Assembly: GCF_965363235.1 (NCBI RefSeq)
Contig: NC_134842.1
Location: 33,912,757-33,976,756 of the forward strand
Direction of reading: 5' to 3'
From: Mytilus galloprovincialis
Taxonomy: Eukaryota
DNA length: 64,000 bases
In this document: piece by piece, positions 3,683 to 57,334 of the stretch
Position numbering within the stretch: position 1 is the stretch's first letter
Layout: every line of letters begins with the position of its first letter
The notes under the pieces: generated by a model
Databases searched by the model: none
Seen by the model: the letters and a program-made list of their open reading frames with translations, nothing else
Told to the model about the DNA's origin: nothing
Position numbers and translations under genes: made by a program

Positions 3683-3699
3683 GTAGGTGAATACCGGGC

Positions 3700-4500: not shown

Positions 4501-4788
4501 AAATTTGTGTTCCTAATAATTAACGCTTTTTGATATTTTTCTCCTCAGTAGTAAAGTTATAAAACAGGATTTGAGTAAGAAATACCATATCTACTTTATA
4601 AAAGCTTCCCTCTCGTGTTCTCTTTGTGTGTGTAAAAGTCTCAATAGTTTATACGAGAAAAAACAACATCTAAATCTAACAACAGTGGTATACTACTGTT
4701 GCCTTTACTGAACACTTTAAAAGTCACTGTAAAAACATACTGGCACATATTATTTCATTTGGCCTAATGAACACATTTTATTTTTCAG

Positions 4789-5364
4789 AATGCCTTGGTC
4801 CTGCTGATATTGCAATTGCGCTAGATTCTTCTGACAGTCTACAAATACCAGATTTCCAAAACTCGAAGGATTTTGTTAATACATTAGTTGCCAACATGCG
4901 TATAGGAGTCAATAACATTCGACTTCGATCTGTTTTTACTTTCAGCACAACCATAAAAGATATAGTTGATGATGTGTACGACAAAAATATTATAAGAGCA
5001 TTATTGCAAGCAGCAACTATGCTGAAAATAGGTACCAATACACATTTGGCTATTCAAGAAATCAGATTGAGATTACAGAGGGCTCCACAAATATCTACCA
5101 ATCCACAATTCGGTATTATTATCACTGATGGTAAATCGGCCTATCCCGCTCTAACGAAAGATGAGGCTGATTTGGCATATAACCAAGGCATCACTATGTT
5201 CGTTGTTGGAATTGTCAGTCCGAAATATTCGATTAGCGAACGACAGACAATGATAGACGAATTATATAGAATAGCTGCTAATATTATTACCAATGTTATT
5301 GTTGTAAAAGACTTCGAAGAAATGTTGACTGCTCTGCCAATATTGAATACTTTAATTTGTAATC
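4789..5364 (+). CDS. Gene 1 exon: canonical VWA domain with intact MIDAS (DIAIALDSSDSL … GTNTHLAIQ … IIITDGKS … GITMFVVGI)
   Basis: Acceptor ttatttttcAG 4787-4788; donor C|GTAAGT at 5365; DxSxS, T-x-G and TDG motifs; whole domain in one exon. Confidence 0.75.
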
Positions 5365-5504
5365 GTAAGTATCTACAATTATCAGTTACATTTTAAGTAT
5401 TTAATAAATTTGTCTATATGTCATTTTCTTTTCTTTCCCAAAATTGTTATTTGTTTTTAAAGTGATAAAGATTATAAAACATTGTCGACTGCTGTACTCC
5501 AACT

Positions 5505-5720
5505 TTTGTCTTGTAATGACATTGTATTCAATGAAATTGTATTCAACTGTCATACAAGTGAGAGATTTAGCTAGCTATAAACGAGGTTTAATCCAACTTT
5601 TTCGAAGTAAGACAATGCATGTACGAAATGGAATATGACAGTTGTTTTCCATTCGCTTGATGTATTTGAGGTTTTAATTTTATCATTTGATAATGGATTT
5701 TCCGTTTTGAATATTTTCTT
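5505..5720. mobile_element. Interspersed repeat family D (actgtcatacaagtgagagatttagctagctat…gatggattttccgttttgaat)
   Basis: Copies at 7430-7625 and 23100-23220, all in gene introns or intergenic DNA. Confidence 0.5.
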
Positions 5721-5823
5721 TTCTATTCAAGTAGTATAATTTCAGTTGCCACGACGACCATTAATTATCTGAACTATGGAGTATTTTTCTTTTCATATTT
5801 TAAAATATTGATTATAATTTCAG

Positions 5824-5868
5824 TTGCCACGACGACCACAACTTCTACCACTGTCACCGTTCCTACAA
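5824..5868 (+). CDS. Gene 1 45-nt micro-exon: Thr-rich linker (ATTTTSTTVTVPT), phase 1/1
   Basis: Acceptor tataatttcAG 5822-5823; donor ACAA|GTAAGT at 5869; partial duplicate of its acceptor plus first 17 nt at 5738-5775 (pseudo-exon). Confidence 0.45.
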
Positions 5869-6839: not shown

Positions 6840-7095
6840 GACCATGATTACATATCTTATATACTACGCTTTAGATTGGTTAGTTTTGAGATAATTTGAT
6901 ATTGAAAATAAATTACCATGAATACATGTGTTATACTAATAAATACATGTGTTATACCATGCTTTCGATAGGTAAGCTATGAGATGATCTGATATTGAAA
7001 AAGGATGACCATGATTACATATCTTATACCACGCTTTATATTGGTTATAGCTATGAGATGATTTGATAGTGAAAATAAATGACTGTGATTACTTT
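6840..7095. repeat. Tandem repeat, ~75-bp unit × ~3.5 (…atgaccatgattacatatcttatac…ttgatattgaaaataaat…) ending ~15 nt before the ChtBD2 exon acceptor
   Basis: Direct reading. Confidence 0.7.
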
Positions 7096-7109
7096 CTTTA
7101 TAATACCAG

Positions 7110-7331
7110 CTACACCACAGTTTGCTACTGAATGTATAACCAGATGCGACCCAAATGCAATTCGGTGCTACGTTCCTCATCCAACAAACTGCAAGTATTA
7201 TTTGGACTGTATCAGAGAGGCAGGTGCTACCCAGTTTGTGCAGTACAGTATTCAAGAATGCGGGCTACACTACTTTTTCAATCCAGACACATCCAAATGT
7301 GATCATCTTGACGAATTCATTTGTAAACAAG
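7110..7331 (+). CDS. Gene 1 exon: chitin-binding domain type 2 / peritrophin-A (CITRCDPNAIRCYVPHPTNCKYYLDCIREAGATQFVQYSIQECGLHYFFNPDTSKCDHLDEFIC)
   Basis: Six-Cys ChtBD2 spacing with aromatic cluster; acceptor ctttctttataataccAG 7108-7109; donor CAAG|GTAAGA at 7332; phase 1/1. Confidence 0.7.
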
Positions 7332-8163
7332 GTAAGAGGTCTGATATACTAAGATCAGTCATTTAAAGGTTTCTCTAAGAAAAGTGACAAAACGAATGTA
7401 CTATGGTCAATATGATTGAATTTAAGTCGACTGTCATACAAGTAAGAGGTTTAGCTAGCTATTAATCCAGGTTTTATCTACCGTTTTCCACAAAAGGAAA
7501 TGTATGTACCAGAAAATCGAGATCATAATAGCTGTTTTCCATTTGTTTAATATGTTTGAACTTTTGCTATTTGATGATGGATTTTCCGTTTTGAATTTTC
7601 CTCGGAGCTTGGTATCTTTGTTATCTTACGTTTATGTACTGAATTTTATTCATTTAACCAAATTATTTCACTCATATTCAGTGTAACCAGGCATGCACGA
7701 TGCTTCACGACTTTCTTTTTATGAATGCATTGCTTAATCAATATCGTCTTCGTATATCATTGTTTATTTCTAATTATCATTTAAAGTTTTAATTGACCAA
7801 AATATTGTGAATAAAACCAAAGATATATTTTCTAGATGTCACTTCACGGTTTGTACCAAAAAACTAATTATAGATACCAGGATTGAAATTTTGTATTTGC
7901 GCTAGATGCGTAAAAAAATAATCACAGTGAAGCTCGAATGAAAAAAAGTTTAAAAAGCCAAATAAAGTACTACGTGGAAGAGCATTGAAGACCAATAAAC
8001 AGCTAAAGTAACATATTCCTATGGTAGAAAAGCCTAAGTATTTAACAAATTCAATGTTTTGTAAACAGATAATTTTTATAGTAAACGAATTCAGGAATAT
8101 GACAGTCATTATCCATTCTAATTCGTTTTGAATATTTTTGAAAGTTTTTTGTTTGTACTCCAG

Positions 8164-8403
8164 ATCCTTGTGTCATTAACAAATGGACAAATGGTACCAC
8201 GTATCCAGTACCTAACAGTTGTAATTTGTATTATAAGTGCCAACACACTGAAGATGGAATGATGATTCACACTAGACAAGCTTGTCAGTGTGAAAATAAG
8301 TTGAAGTACGACACCACCATCAGCGGAACTGACGATCATGATCACTGTATCAAAGATACAACTAATGCATGTAGTATCGTGGACAACAGTAGGACTACTC
8401 CAA
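8164..8403 (+). CDS. Gene 1 exon: second Cys-rich ChtBD2-like domain (DPCVINKW…CNLYYKCQHTEDGMMIHTRQACQCENKLKYD…HCIKDTTNAC)
   Basis: Acceptor tttgtactcCAG 8162-8163; donor CCAA|GTAAGA 8404; CxC-ENKLKYD resembles ChtBD2 C-terminal half; phase 1/1. Confidence 0.65.
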
Positions 8404-8972
8404 GTAAGAAGTCGTATTGATATATGTGGAAACCAAAGATATACTACGAAACAATAAGCATGCAGTCAAACCTGCTTAACAGACACATTGTATTAAGCAA
8501 AAATCTGTGTTAAACGACTATCAATTTCAGATACCTCCGTAGTACAATTTGTATAAATAGAATCTGTTTAAAAGACCACCTGTCTTAAAAGACCACATTT
8601 GCGCTCTCCCTGAAGTGGTCTTATAAAACACGTTTGACTGTACATGCTTATGTATGATAATATTGCATAACTTTTACAAATTTTACAAAGTGTAATTGTC
8701 TCTAAAACCAATTGTATAATATATTGTTTTAATGCATTATGACCATACTCAAGCAACTGAATATTTTTCATTTAGAAAACCATATTTCTTTAAATATGTT
8801 AAATTATTGAATTACCAGTTTAAATGAAATTCATAAACTCAACTCTCTTTCGAAAATGTTAGAGACGTTTATCGTATCTTATAGCATCGTGATAGATCAA
8901 CCGATTTTGAATTAATAAAATTTGTTCTAAACAAATTAGCTATTGCTTACAATCTTTTAATCCAAATTTTAG

Positions 8973-9146
8973 AACTAGAAAGATGTAAAAGGTTTAAGAT
9001 TGGGGATAATAAATATATTGAGGACGGGTCGGAAAAAGAATGTGCAACTGGACAAATATTTAAATCGGAGAGGTGCAGCTGTGTTTGGGGAGAACTTCCA
9101 ACAACCCCTACGGTCACAACAACAGTTCAGCCAACAAGTAATGGAG
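8973..9146 (+). CDS. Gene 1 exon: ChtBD2 C-terminal half (ERCKRFKIGDNKYIEDGSEKECATGQIFKSERCSCVWGELP) plus Thr/Pro linker (TTPTVTTTVQPTSNG)
   Basis: Acceptor ccaaattttAG 8971-8972; two candidate donors (A|GTAATG 9137 or G|GTAAAT 9147), both phase 1. Confidence 0.5.
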
Positions 9147-9189
9147 GTAAATATAACCTTATGACATGGGTAGTATGAAATGATAAAAT

Positions 9190-10728: not shown

Positions 10729-11081
10729 AATGTATTCCGAGCATCCATCTGGATTTCTCAACAATATTAAGCACTGACCCACAACTTCAAGGACAAGACA
10801 ATGTCCAAGTGGCGAACGGTAAAGGCTACTTTGGTGGACTCTCATTTATTGCCAATCCACAACTAAACAACAATATATTACCAATATTTATTGCAAAACT
10901 TAAACTGAAAATGGATACATCATTTAGTTTTGGGAGCAACTCTTTATTGAAGAGTTGTTCAGGAAATCCAATGGCATCTATTCAAATGTACGCAGAAAGA
11001 ACTAACACAAAGAATAAGCTTATTACAAAAGTGATGATAAGTGACTTCAGGGCAATAACTGTCTCTAATGATAAATATGAT
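10729..11081 (+). CDS. Gene 1 exon: unassigned ~117-aa module (ECIPSIHLDFSTILS…GKGYFGGLSFIANPQL…KSCSGNPMASIQMYAERTNTKNKLITKVMISDFRAITVSNDKYD)
   Basis: Acceptor ctattttttAG 10727-10728; donor GAT|GTAAGT 11082; homologous to minus-strand exon 28817-29175 (CxPxIxLD… / …SNCADNELGAVEIALAPRNKEVI). Confidence 0.55.
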
Positions 11082-12191
11082 GTAAGTATTGTTTTTACCT
11101 TTTAAATTGTAACTAACAAATTGAACACAATGTTATTTTCATATGTACAACTCGTATAAAAATCAACCCAACAAACTTAGATCTAAAAATTTGCTTTCGG
11201 AATTTTTTTGTTCCTCCCTCGCTGGGATTCGAACTCATGCTCCTGAGATATCGTGACACCAAATCGCCTGCATTGTTTCCGACACGCTTTTGTTTATCTT
11301 TAACTGTTTCCGACACGCTAGACCACTCGACCACCTTGGCTTCACAATAATAAAGCTTTCGATGGCTGGGTGTTACCTTTCCTCGTCAGTTTTAATCTAG
11401 CGTCGTAATACAGTACATTATCTATTAGGCATAAAGATTGAATTGTTACAGATCAGCTGAAATATTTATTGTGAAGGATCTTACAAATTAATGCAAGATA
11501 CAGTCACAGAAATAATTATATTTATAAGTACGTCTGAACCAGTGACAACTCTACAACAGATTTATCCATCGGTTCACCAGCAGTGATGGTGATACATGAC
11601 TGTGTACATTCTGTATATACAACTCGTCTAAAAATTAGCCCAACAATGTATATATATGTTAGGTGACATTACGATATTAGGGGAAACAAATAACTCTGAC
11701 ACTGTTAGCAATTTGTAGGTCACCGTATGGCTTCAACAATGTGCACAACTCATATCGTGCAGTAATTTTAAATGGCCCGATATGACAATATTTTAAAAAC
11801 AATTCAAACTAGAAAAACCAACGACCTGAGTTGTGCTTGAAAAAATAAACGATAAACGTTAGCAACCGACGACATTAACGGAAATATCAAGGTAAAATGT
11901 TTCCAAAATTTCAAATTATTCCGTATGTTGGTCAGACTTAATTATGTTTACTTGTTAATCTATTCACTTTTGTTTCTTGATTTCAATATATTGTCTCTGA
12001 GTTAATTCGCTTTGTTGGTTCGATATGTCAGAGGCGTTTACAAATTTAATTCATCTCTTTTATTCATATTTATATAATACAATTTTCTTTTTTTGGCAGT
12101 TACGTATGCATTACTGCTGTAAAACCTTCATGTTTAATATGCTTTGTGATAAAAAAATGTTTTTTATCTACTTATATAAAAAATGTAAAAC

Positions 12192-12462
12192 TACCTATTT
12201 TGATTCATTAGAAGTGTGAAAAATGTAAAACAACCTATTTTGATTCGTTAGAAGTGTGAAAAATGTAAAACAATCTTCTTTGATTCATTAGAAGTGTGAA
12301 AAATGTGTGATTCATTAGAAGTGTGAAAAATGTAAAACAACCTATTTTGATTCGTTAGAAGTGTGAAAAATGTAAAACAATCTTCTTTGATTCATTAGAA
12401 GTGTGAAAAATGTAAGACAACCTATTTTGATTCATTAGAAGTTTGAAGTTTAGACTCTAACA
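12192..12462. repeat. Minisatellite with higher-order structure: 40-bp unit (gaaaaatgtaaaacaacctattttgattcgttagaagtgt) × ~7, two alternating variants (80-bp higher-order repeat)
   Basis: Direct reading. Confidence 0.8.
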
Positions 12463-12963
12463 GAATAGAAAGGATATGAGTTATTCATTCATGACACAAA
12501 ATATGCCCAGAAACAACAATTTTATTGTTGTTCTTCGTCTCACCACAATAACAATTCTCAGTCTGGTATTTGTCCCGTTTTGGCATGGAAATCAATATTA
12601 AATGCCTTTCTGTTACTACTGTCACTTGTATGCTCATCATTCGTATACAAAATACAGAATTATGGGGGCACACTTAAAAATATTTTGGTTTGCCAAAACC
12701 CTACGTAGAGATAGAGACAGTTGGAAGGTAGACAGGCGTTCTATTCCAATTTTGTCAGCAGAGACATTAAAGTGTGATATGTTTTTTAGTCTTCATGCCT
12801 ATTTGATTAAAAATAAAATTTCAAATCAGGACAATAAATGAATTTAAGTAGGCAGCTCTTTTCTGGATATGTAATGATAGGGAAAACATTCATATTCTTA
12901 TTGGGCCATACCTTTCTACCTTTTACACGTGTCTTATTGTTGTTTTATTTGTTTCAATTTCAG

Positions 12964-13078
12964 ATTTATGACAACAAAGAAGTTACTATAACATTAGGTT
13001 TCAACAGAGAAATGGTGGCGGTTGAAGTTGCATTAAGTGCAGCAGAAACTGATCTTCAACAAGTAGCTTTCAGTAATG
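12964..13078 (+). CDS. Gene 1 exon: partial internal repeat of the C-terminal third of the preceding module (IYDNKEVTITLGFNREMVAVEVALSAAETDLQQVAFSN)
   Basis: Acceptor gtttcaatttCAG 12961-12963; donor G|GTAAGA 13079; phase 0 in / 1 out; similar to ELGAVEIALAPRNKEVIFRADTVASG of the minus-strand paralog. Confidence 0.45.
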
Positions 13079-13109
13079 GTAAGATAAAATGAATAGTATC
13101 GTCATCACT

Positions 13110-13625
13110 GAATCAGATATAAGAAGATGAGGTATGAGTGCCAATGAGACGTCAAAGTACGGTCTTCAACAAGGAGCCTCACACCAAGAATCAAGCTATA
13201 AAGGACCCCAAAAGGGCCAGTGTAAAACCATTCAAACGACAAAACTAACTGTCTAATATAATCTATATAAAAAATTAGAAACGAAAAACTCTTAGGAACC
13301 ACATGAACAAATGACAACTATTGAACATTAAATTCGAAAAATTTGAAACATTGCATGCATGTTCACGATGTATCCGATAATAAGACATATTGGTATACTA
13401 TTTATCTTACGTAATTATAAAGGAAAGAAATTGGTATGGTTACCAATGAGAAAACTCTTCAAAAGAGACCAAATGACACAGATATTAACAACCATAGGTC
13501 ACCGTATAGTCTTCAACAATAAACAAACATGACATCCTATAGTCAGCTAGAATAGGCCCCGAAATGACAAATGTGAAACAATTCAAACGAGAAAACTAAA
13601 GGTTTAATAGTAATGAATGTTTCAA
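13110..13625. mobile_element. Two adjacent family A SINE-like copies in a gene 1 intron
   Basis: 13110-13320 and 13436-13625 both contain the caaacgacaaaactaac / acaattcaaacgagaaaactaa core. Confidence 0.55.
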
Positions 13626-14034
13626 ACATAAATGAGTTTACATGGACATTGCAACGACTGTATATATATAAAATGTTAAACTGAAATTATATTAGTGGTA
13701 TCAGTTTACTGATGTGGATACACTTGTCGATTAGTAATCTCTTTGCTGAATGAAAAACACTACCTTTTTTCACGTCAACCTATTTAAATCAATGACGTTG
13801 GTCACAGCGATATTGTTTGCGTCTTAAGATTTCGGTGGTCCATCTTGTGTACTATTATTTGTGTTTCCTTTTTTTTTTGCCAATTGCGTTGTCTATGAGT
13901 TTGAATGTCTCTCTGGTATCTTTCGCCCCTCCTTTGATCAGATTAAAGAACATTTAGAGACGTCAATGACAAAGTTTTAATAATTTCTATGTGAACACAC
14001 TACCCTTACTAATACACGATTAATTTTATTATAG

Positions 14035-14123
14035 CTCCAAAAGATTTCCTTGCATGTAATGGGGCATTAAATGTTGGACAACCCTTTGGTGGAAATGGAC
14101 CATTTGTAGGCGATATTTATGAC
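14035..14123 (+). CDS. Gene 1 exon: (A)PKDFLACNGALNVGQPFGGNGPFVGDIYD
   Basis: Acceptor ttttattatAG 14033-14034; donor GAC|GTAAGT 14124; phase 1 in (matches 13078) / 0 out; homologous to minus exon 19632-19708 (MCNRRGYVGYIDD). Confidence 0.5.
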
Positions 14124-15811
14124 GTAAGTAAAGTTATTTTTGTAAATATTGATTAACTATTTTGGTGAAAATTTGAATGTTGAAATGAACGTGATTATGC
14201 ATTTTGATTTGTGTTTGTTGTACGCCACATCAGCGCATAAAGTCTATTTCGTGTTGAGACGTAAATAAACAGACAAGAACATGCTAGTTTGAAATAATTA
14301 TGAACCTTCTGGGAAGAAGTGAGAATGCATGTTTCGTCTTCATCAGACTCATTAGTGTCACTCAAATCATTTTTTTTTACAAGGTCTAATCAATTACATC
14401 GTTGAAGGGTCTTATTGTGTCATATTTTGCTATGACAATAAATGCTAGGGGTAAAAAATCCTAATAAAATGTTCAAATGAAAAATTTATAGAAAATGAAG
14501 AACAAATATGAGTGACAGAAATCAGTAAAAAACATTATATTATAGATTATTAATGTTGATCATGCACATACACATAATGTACCGGAGCTGTATATACTTG
14601 TGAGCACTCCATCCTGCTCTTAAGGGCATACGATACAGTTTTGATCCCGTATTTACAGTTTTATGAAAATTTCCATATAGGTTATTTTTTGCCTGATTAA
14701 ATCAAATATGTAATAAAAAATATACCTTCATGTGCTACTTTTTGAGTTAAATGAGGTCGAAATTTTGTATATTTGCTCAAAATTCGGATTGGTGGCCGTA
14801 TTTTCACTTTCGTAAGAAAGCCATAACTTTTTTGTTTTTTTAAAGATAAACCCAGATTGTTTTTTGTTAAATAATTTGTTATTTCTGCATTTTATAAGTA
14901 TTAAAAAAGATTATGCATTTTTTATTCAGAAATAACTCATATTTATCGATTGGTCATGAATTGAGAAAAAAACGTATTTTTTTGCTGTATATTTATCAAA
15001 ATTAAAAAAAATGCTCTATTTACAGTTTTATTAAATTTTGTCCACATAATCTCCCTGTAAAATGAAACAAAATGTCGTTTTAAAAAATAGGGGCTCATGC
15101 ACTCGTTTTCAAATTAAATCAGTTTGAATGATAAAAATCAGTCGAAAAATGCATCTTTTCCCGATATGTCATAGTTTGACGTCGTGAAAATAACATTTCA
15201 CGTAAGCAACGTAATTACCTCCCCTGTAACTGTATCGTATGCCCTTAAACAGATGCCGTGGTTTAACAACACAACATAATAACATGATAAGATAACAATA
15301 TCCCACAAACATTACACTCACAATCAGAAATCCACAGTATAAGATTAGATAACCTTAGTCGAATTTGTCAAAAACCACACGTACCAAACAAAGACTAGGT
15401 GTAACTTTAGCAGAAGGGTATGCGAACGTACATCTTTATTTGCACCCTGTAACGTGGTTAATTTCACAAGAAAAATATTCATTGCATTTCTTTTTATGGT
15501 TTTTGTCCCTGATTCTAACCGATATCGTAAAGCATCAAATTTCCATGTAGGACTTAGTACTTTAGCTACTTCACCTTAAAAATCTTTTTTAACACTTAAC
15601 CATTTAACCATTTGTTTCAGCCAGTATAAATCAACATTTGTTCTTTAGAAGTCATTCAACTCAAATCTTTACACACATTCTACTTTTTTGATAGCTTTTT
15701 TATTTGGATATTTTAACAAGTTCCTATATAAAATTAAGAATGAAAATGGGGTATGTTTCAAGGAGACAACACATCCTATATATTTTTTAATAAATCTTAT
15801 ATATATTTCAG

Positions 15812-15871
15812 TGGAAAGTCTGGAACGGATGCGACAACATTCCAGTCAGTATGGAATACTTATTCAATTAA
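15812..15871 (+). CDS. Gene 1 putative terminal exon with stop (WKVWNGCDNIPVSMEYLFN*)
   Basis: Acceptor atatatttCAG 15809-15811; phase 0; homologous to terminal minus exon 17769-17876 (LKVHRCVNIDYV…); AATAAA near 16813. Confidence 0.45.
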   Translation, partial: WKVWNGCDNIPVSMEYLFN

Positions 15872-17768
15872 ATATCTGCCAACCAAGCATTTTATCAACA
15901 GTATACAGGCACATATAAGTGTTTACACTCTCAAGAACTATATTTCATGATTATTTTCTTTCTCATCTTGGAATCCTACATACACACGTGTCATGTCATG
16001 TTTTCAAGTATTTACACAGTTGACATAAATGTATATTTAACTTTTAGTTCGCTAATTTAGAATCATATCAGACCTGAATGTTAACTGCAACCACAAATTA
16101 TATATACATGTGTTTTTGTTCTAAAATGTCGAATGTATGAAATACTTGCATGGTTAGTATTTGTTTATGTTTTTATAAGATAATCGATATCATTTGAGGA
16201 TATATTAAAATTGAAAAAAAAGATTAAATATTCAATTGAGCACAAGTTTTATAGATACTGCAGCATTTAATATCAAATCTCTCTCTTAAAATCCTATGCA
16301 AACCCTAATTTAGAATTTCATTTAACATGTTTGTAAATAATGCTCAAAACTTGTTTGTTTTGCTCTCGGTGATAAAAAAATATAATTGTACATACATTGT
16401 CTTTCTATTGTTTTCAGATTTTAATTTTAAATACAAATTTGTTGTAAACCTCGTAGGACACAGGAACTTACAATTAATATGTCTTTTGTCAAAGACTTGC
16501 ATAATATGATATAAATATAATTTCAAAAAAATATTGTGACTATGGTAACATGATGTTTTTACCATACTTGTTTTGTTCTTTTTATTTTGTTATTCGTTTT
16601 CTCTGTGGTAACTGTAAACAGATCGCAATAAATTTGGGTCACACATTTTTTTTTTATACTTTTCTATGTATTTTTTTGTTTCGTTTGAGATTACTGTTTG
16701 CTTTTTTTGCCTTTTACTAAAAATATGTATTGTTTTATGTCGTTGTTTGTATTTTTTTATAAATGTTATTAATTCATTTACACTTTATTCACCACTGGTA
16801 TAACATATTTCAAATAAAGATTAAGTCATCTTTTTCGGTGAAATATATTCGGAATAAAAACAAAATTACATGCAGCTACCGATAAATATTAACATTTAAT
16901 TGATATATTATTATTCTTTTCAATTTACGGTAACTATGTTTATACTTCGAAAAACAAAAACAATGATTCAGTAACATTATTATTATATTGAGAAACATTC
17001 TAAAGCTGTACTAACATTTCTACAAAATACATAATTGGTATGCACTAGGTATTATATGTTCAACATAATTTTGATCATAATGATATATATTCATGTGTAA
17101 ACGGATTTTATTATTTTTGTACATGCAATCACAAGAATCAGTGGTATTAAACTAATATGACATCTAACTCGTTGTTTTCTAATTTTTTTGTCTGTAAATT
17201 TTATTTGCTATATATATATATCTTTTATATGTTTTATAAGGGAATTCAAAAATACCTTTGGTAACAAAGAAAGCTAAAATTGAAAGTAATATAAGTGGTG
17301 TGATTAAACTGCATTACTCCGTTTGTTAGTGTTTGTCTACTTTTATCCCTGCCATTTTAATGTTTTCATTGCTCACCTTCATCGCCCATGTAATTGATCC
17401 TTTGGGTAGGTAATTGAGCATTGTTACAATTTCTGATGAACTTGAACAAAGAGACAAATAACTGCTGGTGCTGTAAATTAAATTTTCGAAATAACAGAGT
17501 TTATATCTATTCCAATGTCAAACAGTATATACCAAGTTAAAATTTTTGCTCGTTTTATCCTCTTTTCTACTTTGTTTTAATTTTTCTGGTGTTCAATCCC
17601 TATATTGGTCACATCTAAATAAGTGGTATATATTTCATAGTCCCGTTGAAATAAAATTTCAAAATTCAAGTACTCTCGCAGACAGACCTAGCAGAGAAAC
17701 GTACATGTGATTTTCAAAATAAGATTTACAGAAAAGAATATCAAAATGTTTTAGTTGTGAAGTAATTT

Positions 17769-17876
17769 TCAAGGTCCACCAATATCTAGGTTAGAGTCCC
17801 TAGCATCATATGGACTAAGTGGTCCTTTTCCATTTCCAATAACATAGTCTATATTTACACAACGATGAACCTTCAA
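17769..17876 (-). CDS. Gene 2 terminal exon with stop (LKVHRCVNIDYVIGNGKGPLSPYDARDSNLDIGGP*)
   Basis: Minus-strand acceptor ttttttgCAG (plus 17877-17880); stop TGA at plus 17769-17771; paralogous to gene 1 terminal exon; AATAAA on minus near plus 17193. Confidence 0.5.
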   Translation of the reverse strand: MKVHRCVNIDYVIGNGKGPLSPYDARDSNLDIGGP

Positions 17877-19631: not shown

Positions 19632-19708
19632 ATCATCAATATATCCAACATATCCACGTCTATTACACATCCCTATCTCAAATCCCCCTGATCGTGTATC
19701 TAAATGTC
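19632..19708 (-). CDS. Gene 2 exon ((G)HLDTRSGGFEIGMCNRRGYVGYIDD)
   Basis: Minus acceptor ttgttttacAG; donor GAT|GTAAGT (plus acttac 19626-19631); phase 1 in / 0 out; homolog of gene 1 exon 14035-14123. Confidence 0.5.
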
Positions 19709-25739: not shown

Positions 25740-25830
25740 CTTTCATTGAAACAGCCTGCTCTTCATCATCAACCTTTGCCCTTAATGCTGTTCCATCATA
25801 TACGTATGTTACATTTTTCCATGCTTTATC
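25740..25830 (-). CDS. Gene 2 exon (DKAWKNVTYVYDGTALRAKVDDEEQAVSMK), phase 0/1
   Basis: Minus acceptor ttatgtcaacAG; donor AAAG|GTAACA; phase links 28817 exon (phase 0) to 19708 exon (needs 1 nt); positional equivalent of gene 1 exon 12964-13078. Confidence 0.4.
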
Positions 25831-28816: not shown

Positions 28817-29175
28817 CTTATATGGTAATCGGATTTCAGCAGGTCCACTAGCAACTGTATCTGCTCTAAAAATAACTTCTTTATTTCTTGGCGCTAATGC
28901 AATTTCAACCGCACCTAATTCATTATCCGCACAATTAGAAACTAATACTTGTTCATCCGGGCCTCCTGGGAAATCGTAGAAACGCAAACTTATTGTCAAT
29001 TTTTGTCCGAAGTCAATATTTTTATACATCCATATTGTTAACTGTCCGATACCGTTAAATCTACCAGCGTTAGCAACAGAATCCACGTGACCATTATTAC
29101 CAATGGCAATGTGTGTGCCGCCATTATCTATAAGTGGTTTACTATCATAGTCTAAATATATTTCTGGTCTGCAAT
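28817..29175 (-). CDS. Gene 2 exon: unassigned ~119-aa module ((Y)CRPEIYLDYDSKPLIDNGGTHIAIGNNGHVDSVANAGRFNGIGQLTIWMYKNIDFGQKLTISLRFYDFPGGPDEQVLVSNCADNELGAVEIALAPRNKEVIFRADTVASGPAEIRLPYK)
   Basis: Minus acceptor cttcaatttCAG (plus 29176-29178); donor AAG|GTAAGC (plus 28815-28816); contains ORF 28727-29086; paralog of gene 1 exon 10729-11081. Confidence 0.6.
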
Positions 29176-30069: not shown

Positions 30070-30149
30070 CTGAAAGGCAACTTCAGTTTATTCTCAAGAC
30101 AAAATAAGCTTAATACATTTTTGTTTTAAAAATTTGATATTTAGTTTGG

Positions 30150-32016: not shown

Positions 32017-32545
32017 CTCAAAGATAAATAAGACAGTTCACATATAAATTTCTAAAAAACCGTAATTTTGAGTTGATATTAAACATATTTTGCCTTTATT
32101 GCAGTGAGACATTTTCAAAGCAAGATTCCTAATACTTTAACCATTATGTTGTGTTAAGCAATATTGACGTTCCCTTTTCAATCATATGTTTCATATTTTT
32201 AGATGTTCCGTTTAAGTTGTGAAAGAAGCACAAAGCAGGAGAGATCAATATTAAAGAGAAGGAAAACAAGCATTTGAGTAGGAAGTATAGAAAGATTGAA
32301 GTAAGTTTAGAAGAGACAATCTTATTTGAACCTATTTATCCGATCACATCGGATGGTGGTAAAACTAAACATTTTCGGACGATGATTTTGTTTTAATTTC
32401 GCTCCCATTTCTATGATATAAAATGATATCAGCTGCTTTATTCTTCTATGTATAAATCCGATCACGATGGTGATAAACATAAAATTAACGTCAAGATGTT
32501 TTTCAATTTTTCGCGCTTATTCTAATAGTTAATATAATATATCAC

Positions 32546-32701
32546 CTGAATTATTATTTCTTGGTGGCCAATCACATAAACATTTTTCCTGATTAAAATG
32601 TGTTCCATCAGCGCATCTAAATTCACCGGAAGCACGTGATGAGGTTAAATAAACTTTGTATTTTGTTGTATCCCCTTCTACAGGACGTAATACACAACTT
32701 C
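32546..32701 (-). CDS. Gene 2 exon: ChtBD2 C-terminal half (SCVLRPVEGDTTKYKVYLTSSRASGEFRCADGTHFNQEKCLCDWPPRNNNS)
   Basis: Minus acceptor ctttttacAG (plus 32702-32705); donor CAG|GTGATA; CxDGxxFNxxxCxCDWP is the diagnostic ChtBD2 ending; contains ORF 32529-32750. Confidence 0.55.
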
Positions 32702-35406
32702 CTGTAAAAAGTACACATTTTTTGTACAGGAAGAGCCTTCGATTTTTCATTTATTTGTGTTAAGAAGCTATAATTCAAGCAAAGCTGTTGCCATCATTTG
32801 TCTACTGAAAATTCAGAATGTCTTTCGTTCGAGTTTTTTTTTATTGCGAATACTGTAATTTGATTAAAACGCGTAAATAAGAGACATAATATTTTTCAAA
32901 GTGCGAATGCATTTTTGTATGCTGCATTTTCTAAAATTTGATTGATTAAAACCACTTTGTGTTCTTTAAGCATAAATGTGCGCGCTGCCTTTGTTAGTCT
33001 GGTGTTAATTTTAGTTTCTTGTGTATAATTTGGAGTTTAGTATGGCGTCGTTCATTATCACTGAACATTGCCATTCTCAATTTTAGCGTGCAATCATTTC
33101 TGAATTTACAGTCTTTACAAACAATTGCCAAATAAGCATTACGTGCGGTTATTCTAGAAACGTTAAATATTATAAGAGTTTTAGCCATGAGCCTTTGTCG
33201 ATAAACATGTACATCAGACGTCTAAAGCAGAAAGAAGTATAAAGCGTCTAAGAAATCTCAAGCAGACTGGAGTACCATAAAGACAAAAGTGGTTAGAAAG
33301 TAAGAAACAGAGAGCATAGTTACGCTTAAAAGCTCAGTAGTATATACACGCTCACATAAGCATTTATCAAAAGTAAATCATTTAAAGTACTATACAAATA
33401 TTTTTTTTAAATTTGCACTTTATTAGCAAATTGAGCTAATTCTTTACAATACAACAATTACGTATGTCTGGGTTTTTTTGGTTTTTTTTGTTTTTTTTTT
33501 TAATATTTAGAGTTCTTTTGTAATGGCTAACAAATATAAAAAAAAAATCTTTTTTCTGTTTGCGTGAGCATTAAAAGTCTCTGCTATGTCGTAAGTTTCT
33601 GTATAGCTGCACCATTCATTTTTCAAAATGTTAATCAGGGTAATACATTTCTGTTGAACATAATTTTCATTCGATGTCTTAATTTTTACGTGTATAGGTA
33701 AAATGTTACATCATCGAATGGCATCCTTAGTAAGCTAGCATGAATTGATATGATTCTGTTATACCATTACATAGCTTTGCTTCCGATAAATGTACTTTTA
33801 CCCAAAAAATATTAATAACGATAATATGCGTAACTGTTGCTATTTCATGAATTTCTTTGGACTTAGACTATGTGTTTTAAATATGGTTGAATATGTTATC
33901 AGTTCAGAAAATGTACTATTTTACTATAATATATATAGTTGATGGATGGATTTTTTAAGATATTATATGCCCGTCTAAAAATGACAGTCATTAAATTCAG
34001 AAAATGCACTATAAACTAAAATTGATGGACCCCATATTTCAAATATGTGATAGATTGTTATATATGATATGTGACACCAATTCCAGAATTTGGGCTATTT
34101 AAGAATCGAAATACATCTTTTGTCTATGAAGAAAAACCATCAAAAATGTGATGTACACTGAATAACTCGTTGGTATTTTGAATATACAGAAACATTATTA
34201 CAGCGATTCCTTGTAGTTTAATTCTAAATTCCCTTTTCAAGGAGTAAAGCATGAAAAAACGTTCATGACATCACAGTCACGTAAAAAATGTCTATGAGCT
34301 GGTAGACAAAACACTTTCAGCCATAAGAAGACGTGTTACTTCTAAAATGAAAGTAGCATTGGCTTGGCTTAAATGTACTGTTAATTTGTCAGTATAAAAA
34401 TCGTCTGTATCGCCGAATAGTTCAACACAAAGTACTGTGGATTCATTTTTTTTCGTGGGTATCAATTTTCGGGGATTGCTGAAAACTTGCATATTCGTGG
34501 ATATTTGATTTCGTGGTTTTGCAAATTTCTGTATACAAAGCCTATTGAAAATATGTTATTCGTTGAACATTTGAATTCGTGGTTTATCCGTACCCACGAA
34601 ACCCACGAAAATTGTTATCCAGCGAATAATAATGAATCAATAGTATTTTAAAATTGCTATACAACTTGTTAAGATAGATTATGATATTCTTACTGGACAA
34701 AAAAAAATGTATACGACATGCAAACTAAGCAGACTAAAGTGGTACCAAATGCTTTAAGTAAAATCAATTTACCTCGTTTAATTTTCCTCAAATTTGTACG
34801 AAATATTTTACTTTGTCCCTTTGACAAAAATATAAATTACAAATGTTCATTTTATTGGCACAAATTAGGTTTATTTCAAATATTATCAATAGTTCTAGTT
34901 TAAATACCGTCTTTTGTTTTGGTTGTGTTGCTACTGATTATATATTTGCCTATTCCATACTATACATGAAGTATAATAGACGAGAAAAGGGACAACCCTG
35001 TGGTATTGCTATATTTACAATTGATTAACTACTTTATAGTTTTTTCGTTTAAAAGGGTACCAAACACATTGGCTAAAATTAATTTCGCTCGTTAAGTTTT
35101 CATTAAATTTTGACAAAAATATCAAAATAATCTCATAAAACGCTCCCCACAAACTTTATCGGAAAAATTTCATTTGATATATAACAGTTTGACAAACATT
35201 AATGTTGATCAATGAGAAACTTTTAAATATTTCCTAAACAATAGAATGTGATTTAAACGTTCAGCTGATTTTTACAAAGGAATATAAATGTAGTGATAGC
35301 TTGCATGTTTATTAATACCTGCTAGTTTTTTTTTTTCTTATTTTCCATTACTTTTAAATGTTCATGCAGGGTTGGTGGGGGTTGTAAGTGGGGGTTGTTT
35401 GGTGTT

Positions 35407-52069: not shown

Positions 52070-52437
52070 TCAGTGAAATATGCAATTAACTTTGTACTCT
52101 TCCTCGCAGATTTTGGTTTCATTATTAAAATACAGATCACGTGGACACTTTTGAACATATGGAATATTGTCGAAACAATTTAAAAACTTTTTGCAGGTTT
52201 CTGGATGCGGAAACAGACCCATGTGACTTGGACACGTGATCATTGAGTAACATGGAACTGCATCTTTATGATTGCAAGCTTTAATAGAGTTGTCAAAGAG
52301 CATCCCTGTTGGACATCTTTCACGAGCAGGAATATTCAAATCACATTTAAATAGGTAGGCACAATTATAAGGATCCTGAAATATTGCATTTAGGGAGGGG
52401 CAAATAACTGGTGGGTTCGGACTTGGTTTCCAAAATT
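52070..52437 (-). CDS. Gene 3 last exon: two tandem ChtBD2 domains plus stop (…PPVICPSLNAIFQDPYNCAYLFKCDLNIPARERCPTGMLFDNSIKACNHKDAVPCYSMITCPSHMGLFPHPETCKKFLNCFDNIPYVQKCPRDLYFNNETKICEEEYKVNCIFH*)
   Basis: Minus acceptor ttttctttacAG (plus 52438-52445); stop at plus 52070-52072; two complete 6-Cys ChtBD2 patterns; the track's M at 52339 is a TTG codon, not a real start. Confidence 0.7.
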
Positions 52438-53756
52438 CTGTAAAGAAAAAAATGAATTAGCATGTATTGTAAAGGTTCGACAGAATACCGAATACCAAAA
52501 ACGCTAACCGGTTAACCGGTCTTTTTTTCAATTTTGATAGATTTGATATAAATTTGTATTGAAATGAACAAATAGTTATGGTTTTTTTTTTAAATGTCGT
52601 CGTGGTAATTAATTTGACAGATAAATTGTCCAGTATATTGATTGCTATTGTTAATCCTAAAAACATAAAATTAATTAGAGCAAGGGGCAGGATCTTAAAG
52701 AAACATAATTAGTATATATGTTTTTTTAACAGTAATTTTAAATCAGTAATGCAATTAAATTTTACTAATTACTTCATTATTTTGTTTTTTATCTAAAATT
52801 GTGTAAACCTACATCTAAATGTGCAACCTCCGTAGTGCAAGGCTTAGTATTACTTTAAACGAAATGCTAACTCAAAAATTGTGATTTGCAAACCAGTGTG
52901 AATGTACCCAATGTATACGTGATAGTACGAGTTGCATGCTAAAATAAACAAGCAAACAAAGTAAAGAAACATGTCGTACGGTGACCTATAGTTGTTCATT
53001 TCTGTGTCATTTTGGTCTCTTGTGAAGAATTGTCTCATTGGCAATCATACCATATCTTCCTTTTAATAATAAATCATTTCAAATTGAAACACTCAACATT
53101 ATTTTCGGAGACAACAAGAGAAAGGGAAAGAATAATCGGTTTCAGACAAATTCAGTTCAACGAGCTCAAGAAGATTTTTTTTTCATTTTTCAATCTGAAG
53201 TTGGTACAAACGCTATAGATACGGTGTATTCGATTATTAAAAGTCAAACTTCCCCAGGAATCCTCACAGACAAGCCTTATAATGCCAAAGGACAATCTTC
53301 AATTTCATAAGCGTAAATTCATTACTTGGATGAAATGTTGTCAAATTGACACTCATACCACATTATCTATGTGTAGGTACTATTGATAAAGCTTTCAAAC
53401 ACCAACTTAAACTACCGGTTAACCGGTTGATCAGTCGAACGATTATCCGAGTAACCGGTTAGGAAAAAGTGTACAATTTGACAACACTAATTTATTTACA
53501 TGTCTGTATAAATAAAATACAACGTAGATTTTATTTAATTTTACGTAAAGAAATAAAATGCCGCTGTTTCCGTTTTCTTGATGTTCAGCAAATTTCGGGT
53601 TAACAGATATATGATGTTTTCCAACATTTCTTTGTATTAAATGGTATTTAGACGAAAAGTCTGTGTTGCACACAATACACATGTACTACGATCAAACCGC
53701 CATCATTGACACGACGAAAGTGTTTAGTATATACTAGATTAATTTATAATATGTAG

Positions 53757-54799: not shown

Positions 54800-55394
54800 C
54801 TGAAAGGGAAACACTTTAGGTCAGTAATTGGACTCAAGACAAATATAACAATTTAAATCATACATGTATGCAATTCAGTCTTTGTTTTCAATCTAACTTA
54901 TAGGACAGGATGAGAGTACTTGTTCTATGTAAAGAACAATAACTCTTGATATCAAACAACTGTTGAATTTTTTTTTTTTACTTTGATCAAAACGACTGAT
55001 GCCATATGTGAGGCACGATATGTATATCCTAGCGGAGATCACCCTCGGTTTTTTGTTGGAGTTCATCTTGCTTAGTCTTTAGTTTTTTTTATATAGCGTC
55101 TTGTAAACTATTGATTTAACACACTTTTTTTCTGTTTATTCTGAATTTGTTGTTTGAATCAAATATTAATTATACAATTTAACAAAAAACTGTTTGGATA
55201 AAGGGGAAAACAAAAAACACAAAATGTATAATTCAGATTGAATTTCCGTTGATGAACGAAAAAATATTAAGATATATAGTTTATAACAGTACAGATTCAT
55301 AGCAACAAAAAAAGGGATTTTTACCAGATGTTTGATTTGTGTAATTTTTCATATGTGTATAATCAATTTGAAATACATGCAAAAAGAAACGAAC

Positions 55395-55991
55395 CTGTGC
55401 ATATACTGCTCCCGATATAAGGTAGAAGACCTCTTAGACCTTCCGAGTAACTTTCCATTGAGAAAACATTACATTTATGAGAGGCTATCTCTGGAAACCA
55501 TTCACCATTCGGCATTCGTCCAACTGAATACATGTCGATTCCAGCTTCCTTAAACTGTTTTGTAGCTGCAATGATATCGGGAATCATATCTGCCTGAACT
55601 GAGCCATAGGTGAACATTACTCCAATTTGTTTGGTGTCGGGTCTAGGTAATACCAGAGGATAACCGGATGGATTTCTGAACATTTGTCGCATTAAGTAAA
55701 GTGCCGCTTTGACATCTGCTGCTCCTTTTAGTTTTCCATTGTATAATTCTCTTTGCGCAAGAAGGCTTATTCTGGTATTGGTTTGTGTTTGATCCTTCAT
55801 TGGTTGCGGCCAACTGATTGCCACAGCTTCTCTTCCGTATAATATCAGACCAATATTTACATTATCTCTGTCGATTTGAAAATAATCTGTAAGCATGGTT
55901 AAAAATCGTTCAAACGGAAAGAATTCTTCCCCCGGAATGTCTGCGTTCCCAGGAATAGCAAATATTATATCTGCCTTCCCTCCACAATCGG
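55395..55991 (-). CDS. Gene 3 exon: VWA domain, MIDAS degenerate (ADCGGKADIIFAIPGNADIP…IGLILYGREAVAIS…LVLPRPDTKQIGVMFTYGSVQADMIPDIIAATKQFKEAGIDMYSVGRMPNGE…ICT)
   Basis: Minus acceptor ctatttttAG (plus 55992-55993); donor CAG|GTTCGT (plus 55393-55394); contains ORF 55363-55896; phase 1 in matches exon 1. Confidence 0.7.
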
Positions 55992-57334
55992 CTAAAAATA
56001 GAAATATCAGTATAGATGTTAATTACGACAGTTAAACAGACATCTAGAGAGGATACTTTAACCTTCGATACTGACATGATTCCTAACAATCCTATCTTAC
56101 ATTTTCTTTTTTAATAAATTTTGAAACGATTGAGAAACGTCGGCTTGTATAATCTTTTAATGTCCCTTTTGGTTACAAACAGCTCATCGCATACATCCTT
56201 GATTTACTGAGAAACTTTGACTAAATTTCCCTTTAATGAATTTGCATATTCTTTTATTGTATTTTTCTGTTCTTTAAAACGACGAATTTTGACAACATGA
56301 AATTTTAAACTCATTGATGCTTTATCACCCAAAATAGTGACGACGGGTGTGCTCTAAACATGTCGTAATGTCAATCCCGTCCTCTTTTCCTTGAATCATG
56401 TGACCAGCTGAATAAGACTTATAACCGAGTTTGTACTTGCTTTAGCAACACGATGGGTTCAACATGTGGAGCAGGATCTGCTTACCCATCCGGAGCACTA
56501 GAGATCATCCCGGTTTTTAGTTGGATCCGTGTGACTCAGCATTTGGTTTTCTCTGTTTTGTTTTGTAGATTTTCTTTTTGATTTTTTTTTTTTTTTTTTT
56601 TTGTCGTTTTTTCTTGCCATGTACGTCATTGTTATAGTTCATTTTCGACTTATGAGTTTAAATATCCCTTTGGTATTTTCCTGCAGTCTTTAACAATTCC
56701 AATATCCAATATTGAATATACTATAGAGCATTGTACTATACAGTTACAAAATGAATTGGCGTAGGACAGGGTTATCTAATTATACATCTTCTATTTACTC
56801 TGTTAAATGACATCATCGTGTTGTTGCGTTTTTGTCTCAATGGAAAACTTTTTCTTTGTGATATCATGTTCTTGATTGACTTATGATTATGCCGACCAGT
56901 TGTTTATATCTATTATTTATAATTAAAATTGCCTTCAAAACTGTCGTCAAATATCCATGCATTTATCTAGTTTATTTTGCACATGAGCCATCATGTATAG
57001 GGCGGCGTTTAAAGTCAAAGTTTTCGTATATGAATATTATATACCAACTATTTATGACATTGTACTAAGAGATTACACAAATGCTTCTTATTTAATATGT
57101 TTTTCAAACTTTTCAGTAAATTTGATTTTTCACTGAATGTAAAAAAAATAATTAATAAAACATTCAAAGAGGAGAATAATTTGACTCTCGGCAAAATAGA
57201 ACGTTCTACCGGTTTGTAAGTGGATTTTCTAATACGTTTGTCCAAACCACTATATTGATTTTTTTCAATTAATTATGTTTGGTTGTTATGTAAGCAATAA
57301 TTACGTTTAAAGATAGCCAATAAAAAGAACTTAC

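What the first reader, a model, noticed from the sequence alone, without database searches (positions are those of the whole stretch)
10729..15871. Unassigned conserved C-terminal module of ~200 aa; a domain candidate
The module (10729-11081 plus following exons in gene 1; 28817-29175 plus following exons in gene 2) fits no domain signature I can recognise from the sequence. Conserved features are CxPxIxLD(F/Y) at the N-terminus, G-rich β-strand-like segments, (S/K)(N/S)C(A/S)(D/G)N…A(V/S)(E/I)(I/Q)…(R/T)N(K/T)(E/K)(V/L)I, a C-N-(G/R)…G(Y/F)(V/G)(G/D)(Y/I)(I/Y)DD motif and a (W/L)KV…C(D/V)NI tail. It could be a LamG/ConA-like β-sandwich, as has been reported for some Pif-like proteins, or an undescribed fold. 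Gene 1 also carries a partial internal repeat of its C-terminal third (exon 12964-13078).
Basis: inference. Interest (0 to 1): 0.6.

Follow-up and report, generated by a model that had tools for sequence, protein, structure and literature searches.

The report
Laminin-G domain of mussel shell-matrix genes
The "unassigned" 200-residue C-terminal module is the laminin-G-type beta-sandwich already described at the end of mollusc Pif/BMSP shell-matrix proteins: this is clearly shown for the second gene and inferred by paralogy for the first, so it is ordinary.

Summary
Both modules exist at the stated coordinates, with canonical splice sites and one open frame across four exons.

**Context.** The window is Mytilus DNA; one public M. 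galloprovincialis protein is identical over the exons it shares. It carries two tail-to-tail genes with VWA, chitin-binding (CBM_14) and module exons.

**Gene 2 module (29175-17769, minus strand): a laminin G / LNS domain.**
- Pfam Laminin_G_3: E 3.5e-5, just under the cut-off.
- Scallop and unionid homologues are named "shell matrix protein-like" and carry PF13385.
- A spliced transcript from a related mussel joins all four exons.
- The literature already describes LG domains in Pif/BMSP proteins and a Laminin_G_3 shell protein in M. galloprovincialis.

**Gene 1 module (10729-15871, the finding itself): a much more divergent copy.**
- It has no Pfam hit, its only relatives come from unidentified samples, and structure prediction failed.
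- Four lines tie it to gene 2: global alignment (z 5.5), four introns with identical phases, a collinear four-cysteine framework, and the same place in the architecture.
- I read it as a divergent LamG domain (about 0.75).

The claimed internal repeat is not supported. Novelty and interest are low.

The parts
10729..11081 (+). Gene 1 module, exon A. The first 2 nt complete a split codon, then it encodes CIPSIHLDF...SNDKYD (117 aa), the N-terminal ~60% of the domain.
   Evidence: Acceptor ttttag|AA and donor GAT|gtaagt. Conserved at 45-51% identity in P0011 and P0013. Global alignment to gene 2 exon A gives z 5.7, 0/3000 shuffles.
12964..13078 (+). Gene 1 module, exon B: IYDNKEVTITLGFNREMVAVEVALSAAETDLQQVAFSN plus 1 nt (ends in phase 1).
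   Evidence: Boundaries tttcag|ATT and AATG|gtaaga. A homologous exon, FFDNERVTVILGFNKNVIAVD..., ends in the same phase on L002 at 5717-5826. P0014 shows the same exon sequence in another assembly. It is not an internal repeat.
14035..14123 (+). Gene 1 module, exon C: (A)PKDFLACNGALNVGQPFGGNGPFVGDIYD. It holds the third Cys and the G-F-V-G-x-I-x-D strand motif.
   Evidence: Boundaries tatag|CTCC and GAC|gtaagt, with the frame continuous from exon B. There is no cross-species or transcript support for this exon.
15812..15871 (+). Gene 1 module, exon D: WKVWNGCDNIPVSMEYLFN plus the TAA stop. It holds the fourth Cys.
   Evidence: Acceptor tttcag|TGG; stop at 15869-15871.
28817..29175 (-). Gene 2 module, exon A: CRPEIYLDYD...EIRLPYK (119 aa).
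   Evidence: Identical in P0001, M. galloprovincialis. Transcript L003 maps to 29177-28806.
25740..25830 (-). Gene 2 module, exon B: DKAWKNVTYVYDGTALRAKVDDEEQAVSMK plus 1 nt. It carries the classic LamG 'W..V...YDG..L...VD' strands.
   Evidence: Transcript L003 maps to 25832-25739. The public model P0001 skips this exon.
19632..19708 (-). Gene 2 module, exon C: GHLDTRSGGFEIGMCNRRGYVGYIDD.
   Evidence: Transcript L003 maps to 19710-19633. The public model P0001 skips this exon.
17769..17876 (-). Gene 2 module, exon D: LKVHRCVNIDYVIGNGKGPLSPYDARDSNLDIGGP plus the TGA stop. It encodes the last strand and a low-confidence tail.
   Evidence: Present in P0001 and P0002. Model residues 183-210 have pLDDT below 50.
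4680..5393 (+). Gene 1 context: VWA domain exon.
   Evidence: Pfam PF00092, E 1.5e-18.
7079..7363 (+). Gene 1 context: chitin-binding CBM_14 exon. Two further Cys-rich exons follow at 8142-8417 (CBM_14-like) and 8885-9175 (no Pfam hit).
   Evidence: Pfam PF01607, E 3.2e-5. Exon 8142-8417 gives CBM_14 at E 0.18 only, and 8885-9175 gives no hit. Homologous exons lie on L002.
55366..56022 (-). Upstream of gene 2, same strand: VWA domain exon. Whether it belongs to the same transcript was not shown.
   Evidence: Pfam PF00092, E 1e-11.
52073..52456 (-). Upstream of gene 2, same strand: two CBM_14 chitin-binding domains.
   Evidence: Pfam PF01607, E 3.8e-20, two stretches.
32532..32750 (-). Gene 2: Cys-rich CBM_14-like exon that precedes the module. 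It is part of public protein P0001.
   Evidence: Pfam CBM_14, E 4.2e-4, below the cut-off. Identical in P0001.

Best explanation
Both modules are C-terminal laminin-G-type (LG/LNS; Pfam Laminin_G_3; concanavalin-A-like) beta-sandwich domains. They belong to two convergently oriented Pif/BMSP-family shell-matrix genes of a Mytilus mussel.

**What is shown**
- Gene 2's module has the LG fold.
- It belongs to the bivalve 'shell matrix protein' / Laminin-G3 Pif-like group.

**What is inferred**
- Gene 1's module is a fast-diverged paralogue of the same domain. It keeps the exon structure, the four-cysteine framework (probably two disulfides) and the terminal G-[FY]-V-G-x-I-x-D-[WL]-K-V strand.
- How it works is inferred from the family. 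The protein is secreted by the mantle. The CBM_14 domains anchor it to chitin and the VWA domains bind other matrix proteins. The LG sandwich is then a further binding surface, probably Ca2+-assisted, for acidic or sulfated glycans, matrix proteins or the carbonate mineral.
For: **Gene 2**
- Pfam Laminin_G_3 matches at E 3.5e-5 and covers profile positions 14-142 of 151.
- All 5 of the gene-2 family's longer members scanned hit Laminin_G_3, best E 2.3e-6.
- Homologues at 42-60% identity are named 'shell matrix protein-like' and carry precomputed PF13385.
- The AlphaFold model has pTM 0.65, with an all-beta core at pLDDT 57-87.
- Foldseek's top hits are laminin alpha2 LG4-5 (E 3.7e-8), agrin, neurexin and perlecan LG3.
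- It matches the published Pif LG consensus fragments (z 12.8 and 4.65).
- Spliced transcript L003 joins all four exons.

**Literature**
- LG domains lie downstream of the chitin-binding domain in Pif/BMSP proteins (PMC11291548).
- A 'Laminin G3/Pif-like' group is described (bioRxiv 10.1101/2021.07.10.451900).
- A Laminin_G_3 'Shell matrix protein-1' was found in M. galloprovincialis shell (PMC4517812).

**Gene 1**
- Global alignment to gene 2 gives z 5.5, 0/3000 shuffles.
- The gene-2 family HMM hits P0013, g1 and P0011 at P = 6e-6, 0.003 and 0.005. The reciprocal search gives P = 4e-4 to 0.03.
- hhalign in global mode aligns the two modules end to end.
- Intron phases are identical (1, 0, 1, 0). 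The first and last introns sit exactly at the shared motifs.
- Each module has exactly four Cys, at 1/76/163/192 against 1/81/164/181. Random placement reaches this at P about 0.005.
- It holds the same C-terminal place after VWA and CBM_14 exons.
Against: **Gene 1**
- No Pfam Laminin_G hit even at E <= 10.
- No significant match to the published LG fragments (z 0.99 and -0.34).
- AlphaFold with 3 sequences failed (pLDDT 30), and the fold search on that model was meaningless.
- Exons B, C and D are not individually similar to gene 2.
- Local profile alignments prefer a shifted register at E 0.005, against 0.15 for the collinear one.
- No transcript or annotated protein spans gene 1's junctions.

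**Gene 2**
- The window sequence itself scores 24.4 bits, below Pfam's 27.6 cut-off.
- Mean pLDDT is only 57.8.

**Function**
- No ligand or Ca2+ site was tested.
Confidence: 0.78

Rival explanations
1. Gene 1's module is a different, undescribed fold. It would share with gene 2 only a cysteine framework and short terminal motifs, through exon shuffling or convergence, and would not be a LamG sandwich.
For: - No Pfam or PDB sequence hit.
- AlphaFold gave no confident model.
- An exhaustive phmmer search of 1.84 billion representatives found only two real relatives plus a near-identical copy of exon B.
- Exons B-D show no significant similarity to gene 2.
Against: - Exon A, about 60% of the module, aligns collinearly with the LamG core of gene 2 at z 5.7.
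- All four intron phases and all four Cys positions correspond.
- The C-terminal FVGDIYDWKVW matches the LG hallmark strand, YVGYIDDLKVH in gene 2.
- Gene 2's family also has no sequence hit in the PDB although its fold is clearly LG. Failure to hit therefore says little.
Confidence: 0.1
2. Gene 1's module is a decaying or partial LG remnant. This could be a pseudogene tail, or 'partial LG' halves as reported for many Pif/BMSPs. It would no longer fold as a complete sandwich and might not be expressed as predicted.
For: - No protein or transcript covering its exon junctions exists in a 5.8-billion-sequence database, although gene 2's public model is there.
- PMC11291548 reports that only 2 of 34 Pif/BMSPs have a complete LG domain by HMM.
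- The tryptophan of the 'W..V' strand is lost in exon B.
Against: - The 204-codon frame stays open across four exons with canonical splice sites.
- Exons A and B are conserved at protein level in divergent genomes, and L002 keeps the phase.
- All four cysteines are retained.
- No low-complexity insert splits the domain.
Confidence: 0.1
3. The similarity between the two modules is chance, and the gene 1 exons are not coding.
For: BLASTP gives E of only 0.018 at 23% identity.
Against: - Global z 5.5.
- Exon A homologues at E 6e-20 and 1e-15.
- A 139-codon open frame in DNA of 32% GC.
- The exon order CBM_14, CBM_14-like, Cys-rich exon, exon A, exon B is conserved on L002.
Confidence: 0.02

Closest known systems
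Bivalve 'shell matrix protein' / Laminin-G3 Pif-like proteins. Examples are the scallop 'shell matrix protein-like' P0009, P0010, P0017 and P0018, Sinanodonta P0003, and M. galloprovincialis Shell matrix protein-1 of PMC4517812.
   Same: Gene 2's module is 42-60% identical over the whole domain. It has the same CxPxLxhxF start, the same four Cys, the same preceding Cys-rich CBM_14-like motifs, and Pfam PF13385.
   Different: Those homologues are short (236-366 aa). Four of the six full-length ones (P0003, P0010, P0017, P0018) begin with a signal-peptide-like hydrophobic N-terminus. In the window, VWA and CBM_14 exons lie 20 kb upstream on the same strand, and whether they join the same transcript is unknown. 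Gene 1's module shares only about 20-25% identity with this group.
[quoted passage not shown] 2013 as cited in PMC11291548)
   Same: The architecture is the same: VWA, then CBM_14, then a C-terminal LG. Gene 2 matches the published N- and C-terminal LG consensus fragments (z 4.65 and 12.8).
   Different: In 32 of the 34 Pif/BMSPs with LG sequence, only the two LG halves are recognised and they are separated by inserts of 138-1438 aa (PMC11291548). Both window modules are compact and uninterrupted. Gene 1 does not match the published fragments significantly.
Metazoan LG/LNS domains with solved structures (laminin alpha2 LG5 1qu0, neurexin-1alpha LNS4 2r16, agrin 1pz7, perlecan LG3 3sh5)
   Different: Sequence identity is only 17-20%. 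The four-cysteine pattern with an N-terminal Cys is particular to the mollusc group. The Ca2+ site was not examined.

Membership tests
Laminin G / LNS (Pfam PF13385 Laminin_G_3, ConA-like clan) - gene 2 module | Match to the family HMM at or above the curated cut-off | tested here: inconclusive
   24.4 bits against a 27.6 cut-off, at E 3.5e-5, covering profile positions 14-142 of 151. Homologues P0009, P0010, P0018 and P0019 carry precomputed PF13385. Best member E is 2.3e-6.
Laminin G / LNS - gene 2 module | Two-sheet beta-sandwich (jelly roll) that superposes on solved LG/LNS domains | tested here: met
Laminin G / LNS - gene 1 module | Match to the family HMM | tested here: not met
   No Laminin_G hit at E <= 10 for g1, P0011 or P0013.
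Laminin G / LNS - gene 1 module | Beta-sandwich fold that superposes on solved LG domains | tested here: inconclusive
   AlphaFold with a 3-sequence alignment gave pLDDT 30. The Foldseek search on that model gave only E >= 1.2.
Laminin G / LNS - gene 1 module | Homology to a domain shown to be LG (gene 2 family) | tested here: met
   Global z 5.5, 0/3000 shuffles. HMM P-values of 6e-6 to 0.005. Identical intron phases. Collinear four-Cys framework, P about 0.005. Caveat: the register is ambiguous in local profile alignments.
Laminin G / LNS - both modules | C-terminal strand motif: hydrophobic-G-x-hydrophobic-D-x-hydrophobic-[KR]-hydrophobic | tested here: met
   FVGDIYDWKVW in gene 1 and YVGYIDDLKVH in gene 2, read directly from the sequence. 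The published Pif LG C-fragment reads FKGYMDEVYIY (PMC11291548).
Laminin G / LNS - both modules | Ca2+ site at the sandwich rim used for ligand binding (present in many LG domains, not all) | not tested
   The tools do not return model coordinates, so no residue mapping was done.
Pif/BMSP family (VWA + CBM_14 + LG shell-matrix proteins) | VWA and CBM_14 domains upstream of the LG domain in the same gene | tested here: met
   Gene 1: VWA 4680-5393 (E 1.5e-18) and CBM_14 7079-7363 (E 3.2e-5). Gene 2 strand: VWA 55366-56022 (E 1e-11) and 2 x CBM_14 52073-52456 (E 3.8e-20). For gene 2, whether these lie on one transcript was not shown.
Pif/BMSP family | Similarity to the published conserved LG fragments (Suzuki 2013, quoted in PMC11291548) | tested here: inconclusive
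   Gene 2 is met (z 4.65 and 12.8). Gene 1 is not met (z 0.99 and -0.34).
Pif/BMSP family | VWA domain falls inside the Pif/BMSP clade in a phylogeny, which is how the family is defined in PMC11291548 | not tested
Pif/BMSP family | Mantle expression and presence in the shell matrix | not testable with these tools
   Literature only: a Laminin_G_3 'Shell matrix protein-1' was detected in all three shell layers of M. galloprovincialis (PMC4517812). Its identity with gene 2 was not checked.

The most novel reading that the evidence does not exclude
Gene 1's module could be a narrowly distributed, very fast-evolving derivative that has left the recognisable LamG sequence space, or has even remodelled the fold, while keeping the four-cysteine framework. 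That would make it a distinct, unannotated domain subfamily of BMSP-like shell proteins. Only two real relatives appeared among 1.84 billion representatives, both from unidentified samples. There is no Pfam hit and no confident AlphaFold model.
Probability: 0.12. Interest if true: 0.35.

Novelty: new member of a known kind. Interest (0 to 1): 0.15.

Why it matters
- **Annotation.** The result removes a supposed new domain. It also shows that the public M. galloprovincialis model for gene 2 (P0001) skips two exons and so loses its Laminin_G_3 annotation.
- **Locus structure.** Two Pif/BMSP-type genes sit tail to tail, and one of them has an LG domain too divergent for Pfam. This is useful to people cataloguing shell-matrix gene families, because HMM-based surveys report most LG domains in this family as 'partial' and may undercount them.
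- **Scope.** It opens no new biology.

Tried and rejected
- **Word-indexed homologue search with gene 1's module.** Nothing found.
- **Exhaustive phmmer search.** It gave two real relatives and one near-identical exon-B copy. The other three hits were repeat proteins that I judged spurious.
- **AlphaFold on gene 1 with 3 sequences.** It gave pLDDT 30, and Foldseek on that model returned noise.
- **PDB profile search with the gene 1 family.**
  - The first search gave weak concanavalin A hits at E 0.14-1.3.
  - These vanished when exon B of L002 was added, so I reject them as noise.
- **PDB profile search with the gene 2 family.** No hits even at E 10. Sequence-only PDB searches are therefore uninformative here.
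- **Automatic MAFFT and local hhalign alignments.**
  - They put gene 1's exon B against gene 2's 'VLVSNC...AVEIAL' segment, a shifted register.
  - I rejected that register for two reasons. It needs a ~60-aa insertion and a ~50-aa deletion. It also breaks the correspondence of introns and cysteines.
- **Internal repeat in gene 1.** Not significant.
- **JGI metagenome scan for more gene 1 relatives.** None found.
- **Supplement of PMC11291548.** It holds none of these sequences.
- **Look-up of P0001's contig.** Not on record.
- **The afdb50 fold library.** Unavailable.
- **Exon C on L002.** I found none before the scaffold ends.


Full report
**What the window is**

The DNA is AT-rich (GC about 0.31) and clearly eukaryotic, with many introns. 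A public Mytilus galloprovincialis protein, P0001, is identical to several minus-strand exons. The window is therefore from that mussel or a very close relative.

Two genes converge on each other:
- Gene 1 runs on the + strand to a stop at 15871.
- Gene 2 runs on the - strand to a stop at 17769.

Pfam finds the following on the exons:

| Exon | Strand | Pfam result |
|---|---|---|
| 4680-5393 | + | VWA, E 1.5e-18 |
| 7079-7363 | + | CBM_14, E 3.2e-5 |
| 55366-56022 | - | VWA, E 1e-11 |
| 52073-52456 | - | two CBM_14, E 3.8e-20 |
| 32532-32750 | - | CBM_14-like, E 4e-4 |

VWA, then a chitin-binding domain, then a C-terminal module is the published architecture of the Pif/BMSP shell-matrix family (PMC11291548).

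**Checking the observation**

The module exons are real.

- Gene 1:
  - Its exons are 10729-11081, 12964-13078, 14035-14123 and 15812-15871.
  - All have AG/GT boundaries and give one 204-aa frame.
- Gene 2:
  - Its exons are 29175-28817, 25830-25740, 19708-19632 and 17876-17769.
  - They give a 210-aa frame.
- Intron phases are identical in the two genes (1, 0, 1, 0).

Similarity between the two modules is weak but real:
- BLASTP gives E 0.018.
- Global alignment gives z 5.5 with 0 of 3000 shuffles reaching it. Nearly all the signal lies in exon A, where z is 5.7.

Gene 1's exons are also conserved elsewhere:
- Exon A is found at 45-51% identity in two foreign sequences.
- One of these lies on a 6.5-kb metagenome scaffold, L002. 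That scaffold also carries the homologous CBM_14 exon, CBM_14-like exon, Cys-rich exon and exon B, with exon B ending in the same phase.

The claimed internal repeat fails. Exon B resembles the rest of gene 1's module no better than shuffled sequence does (z -0.58 and 1.46).

**Gene 2's module is a laminin G domain**

Sequence evidence:
- Pfam Laminin_G_3 matches at E 3.5e-5 over almost the whole profile. The score is 24.4 bits, just under the 27.6 cut-off.
- All 5 of its family's longer members scanned hit the same model.
- Homologues in scallops, in a unionid and in an unidentified sample are 42-60% identical. The scallop ones are named 'shell matrix protein-like', and four of the homologues carry PF13385.

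Structure evidence:
- An AlphaFold model from a six-sequence alignment is all-beta. It has pTM 0.65 and core pLDDT 57-87.
- Foldseek ranks laminin alpha2 LG4-5 first at E 3.7e-8, followed by agrin, neurexin and perlecan LG domains.

Agreement with published work:
- The module matches the published Pif LG consensus fragments (z 12.8 and 4.65).
- A Laminin_G_3 'Shell matrix protein-1' has already been found in all three layers of the M. galloprovincialis shell (PMC4517812).
- A 'Laminin G3/Pif-like' group has been described across molluscs (bioRxiv 10.1101/2021.07.10.451900).

Transcript evidence:
- A 1444-nt contig, L003, from sequencing runs of an unidentified organism (about 73% nucleotide identity, presumably another mussel) carries all four exons in one ORF.
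- The break points fall at my predicted splice sites. The exons therefore do form a contiguous ORF in a transcript.

**Gene 1's module**

This is the copy at the finding's coordinates, and it is much harder to assign. Direct tests gave nothing:
- No Pfam hit.
- No significant match to the published LG fragments.
- No robust PDB sequence hit. Weak concanavalin A hits disappeared with an improved profile.
- AlphaFold failed for lack of homologues (pLDDT 30).

The assignment rests on homology to gene 2's family, through independent lines:
1. The global alignment statistic.
2. HMM scores of the gene 2 family against P0013, g1 and P0011 (P = 6e-6, 0.003, 0.005), and the reciprocal search.
3. Four introns with identical phases. 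The first lies one codon before the shared CxPxIxLD motif, and the last lies exactly between [IY]D and [WL]KV.
4. Exactly four cysteines in every full-length module of both families, at collinear positions: 1/76/163/192 against 1/81/164/181. A random-placement test gives P about 0.005.
5. The LG hallmark strand FVGDIYDWKVW.
6. The same place in the same domain architecture.

One caveat applies. Local profile alignments prefer a shifted register. I reject it because it requires large indels and breaks the intron and cysteine correspondence. hhalign in global mode returns the collinear register end to end.

Gene 2's family also has no PDB sequence hit despite its clear LG fold. Gene 1's silence in such searches therefore carries little weight.

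**Mechanism**

- *Shown:* domain identities and gene 2's fold.
- *Inferred from established knowledge of the families:*
  - These are secreted matrix proteins.
  - CBM_14 binds chitin and VWA binds partner proteins. PMC11291548 reports that recombinant Pif VWA pulls down Pif 80.
  - The LG sandwich supplies a further, probably Ca2+-assisted, binding surface for acidic glycans, matrix proteins or mineral.
  - The four conserved cysteines probably form two disulfides.
- None of the ligand statements was tested here.

**Novelty**

- Gene 2's module is already known.
- Gene 1's is a divergent new member of a known kind.
- The residual novel reading is that gene 1's module has left the LamG fold or forms a distinct subfamily. 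I put this at about 0.12.
- Overall interest is low.

Noticed in passing
window 17769-32750 (-), exons 25830-25740 and 19708-19632: The public M. galloprovincialis model P0001 ('Hypothetical predicted protein') joins ...RLPYK directly to LKVHRC.... It skips two exons and so truncates the LamG domain, which probably explains why it has no Pfam annotation. Spliced contig L003 from a related species contains both exons.
   Followed up: yes
window 32750-52073 (-): It is unclear whether the LamG-bearing part of gene 2 is one transcript with the VWA and 2 x CBM_14 exons 20 kb upstream. Homologues P0003, P0010, P0017 and P0018 are short stand-alone proteins that begin with a signal-peptide-like hydrophobic N-terminus.
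   Followed up: partly
window 875-1585 and 1866-2612 (+): Two long open exons of gene 1 (237 and 249 aa) have no Pfam hit. The second shows only 32% identity over 83 aa (E 0.05) to the VWA exon at 4680-5393. They may be very divergent VWA domains, as in four-VWA BMSPs, but remain unassigned.
   Followed up: partly
window 49950-51156: A satellite of 31-nt units (27 copies, 92% matches) and 23-nt units. It produces long spurious cysteine-rich ORFs on the minus strand (50058-51168).
   Followed up: partly
window 12179-12447 and 3700-4483: Intronic tandem repeats: about 7 copies of a 40-nt unit inside the module's first intron, and about 24 copies of a 33-nt unit in an upstream intron of gene 1.
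   Followed up: no
window 11205-11340 (intron after exon A): A tRNA-like / SINE-like stretch (...ggttcctccctcgctgggattcgaactcatgctcctgag...). ARAGORN calls no tRNA anywhere in the window. Related dispersed repeat pieces (ggtatgagtgccaatga..., ggtcaccgtat.gcttcaacaa) recur at about 10575, 11717, 13130 and 13497.
   Followed up: partly
window 3560-3687 (+): A threonine-rich, mucin-like linker (TTTAAATTSLATTTTTTTQAPTTTTIKTTT) lies between the upstream exons of gene 1 and its VWA exon.
   Followed up: no
L002 3354-3900: A Tc1/mariner-like transposase remnant (…FSDESRFMLQKRDRRTRVYRRHNERF…MMWGAISY) sits in an intron of the gene 1 homologue on a metagenome scaffold. The scaffold also contains a run of N at about 2150-2250.
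   Followed up: no
window 49282-49712 (+): A locally GC-rich open frame with Gly/Pro runs (…PGGGGGGSGGAHPPLYF…PPPLSKIPASAPA…). Its nature is unknown, and it lies next to the satellite.
   Followed up: no
window 15871-17769: The two Pif/BMSP-type genes are convergent, and their stop codons are only 1.9 kb apart.
   Followed up: no
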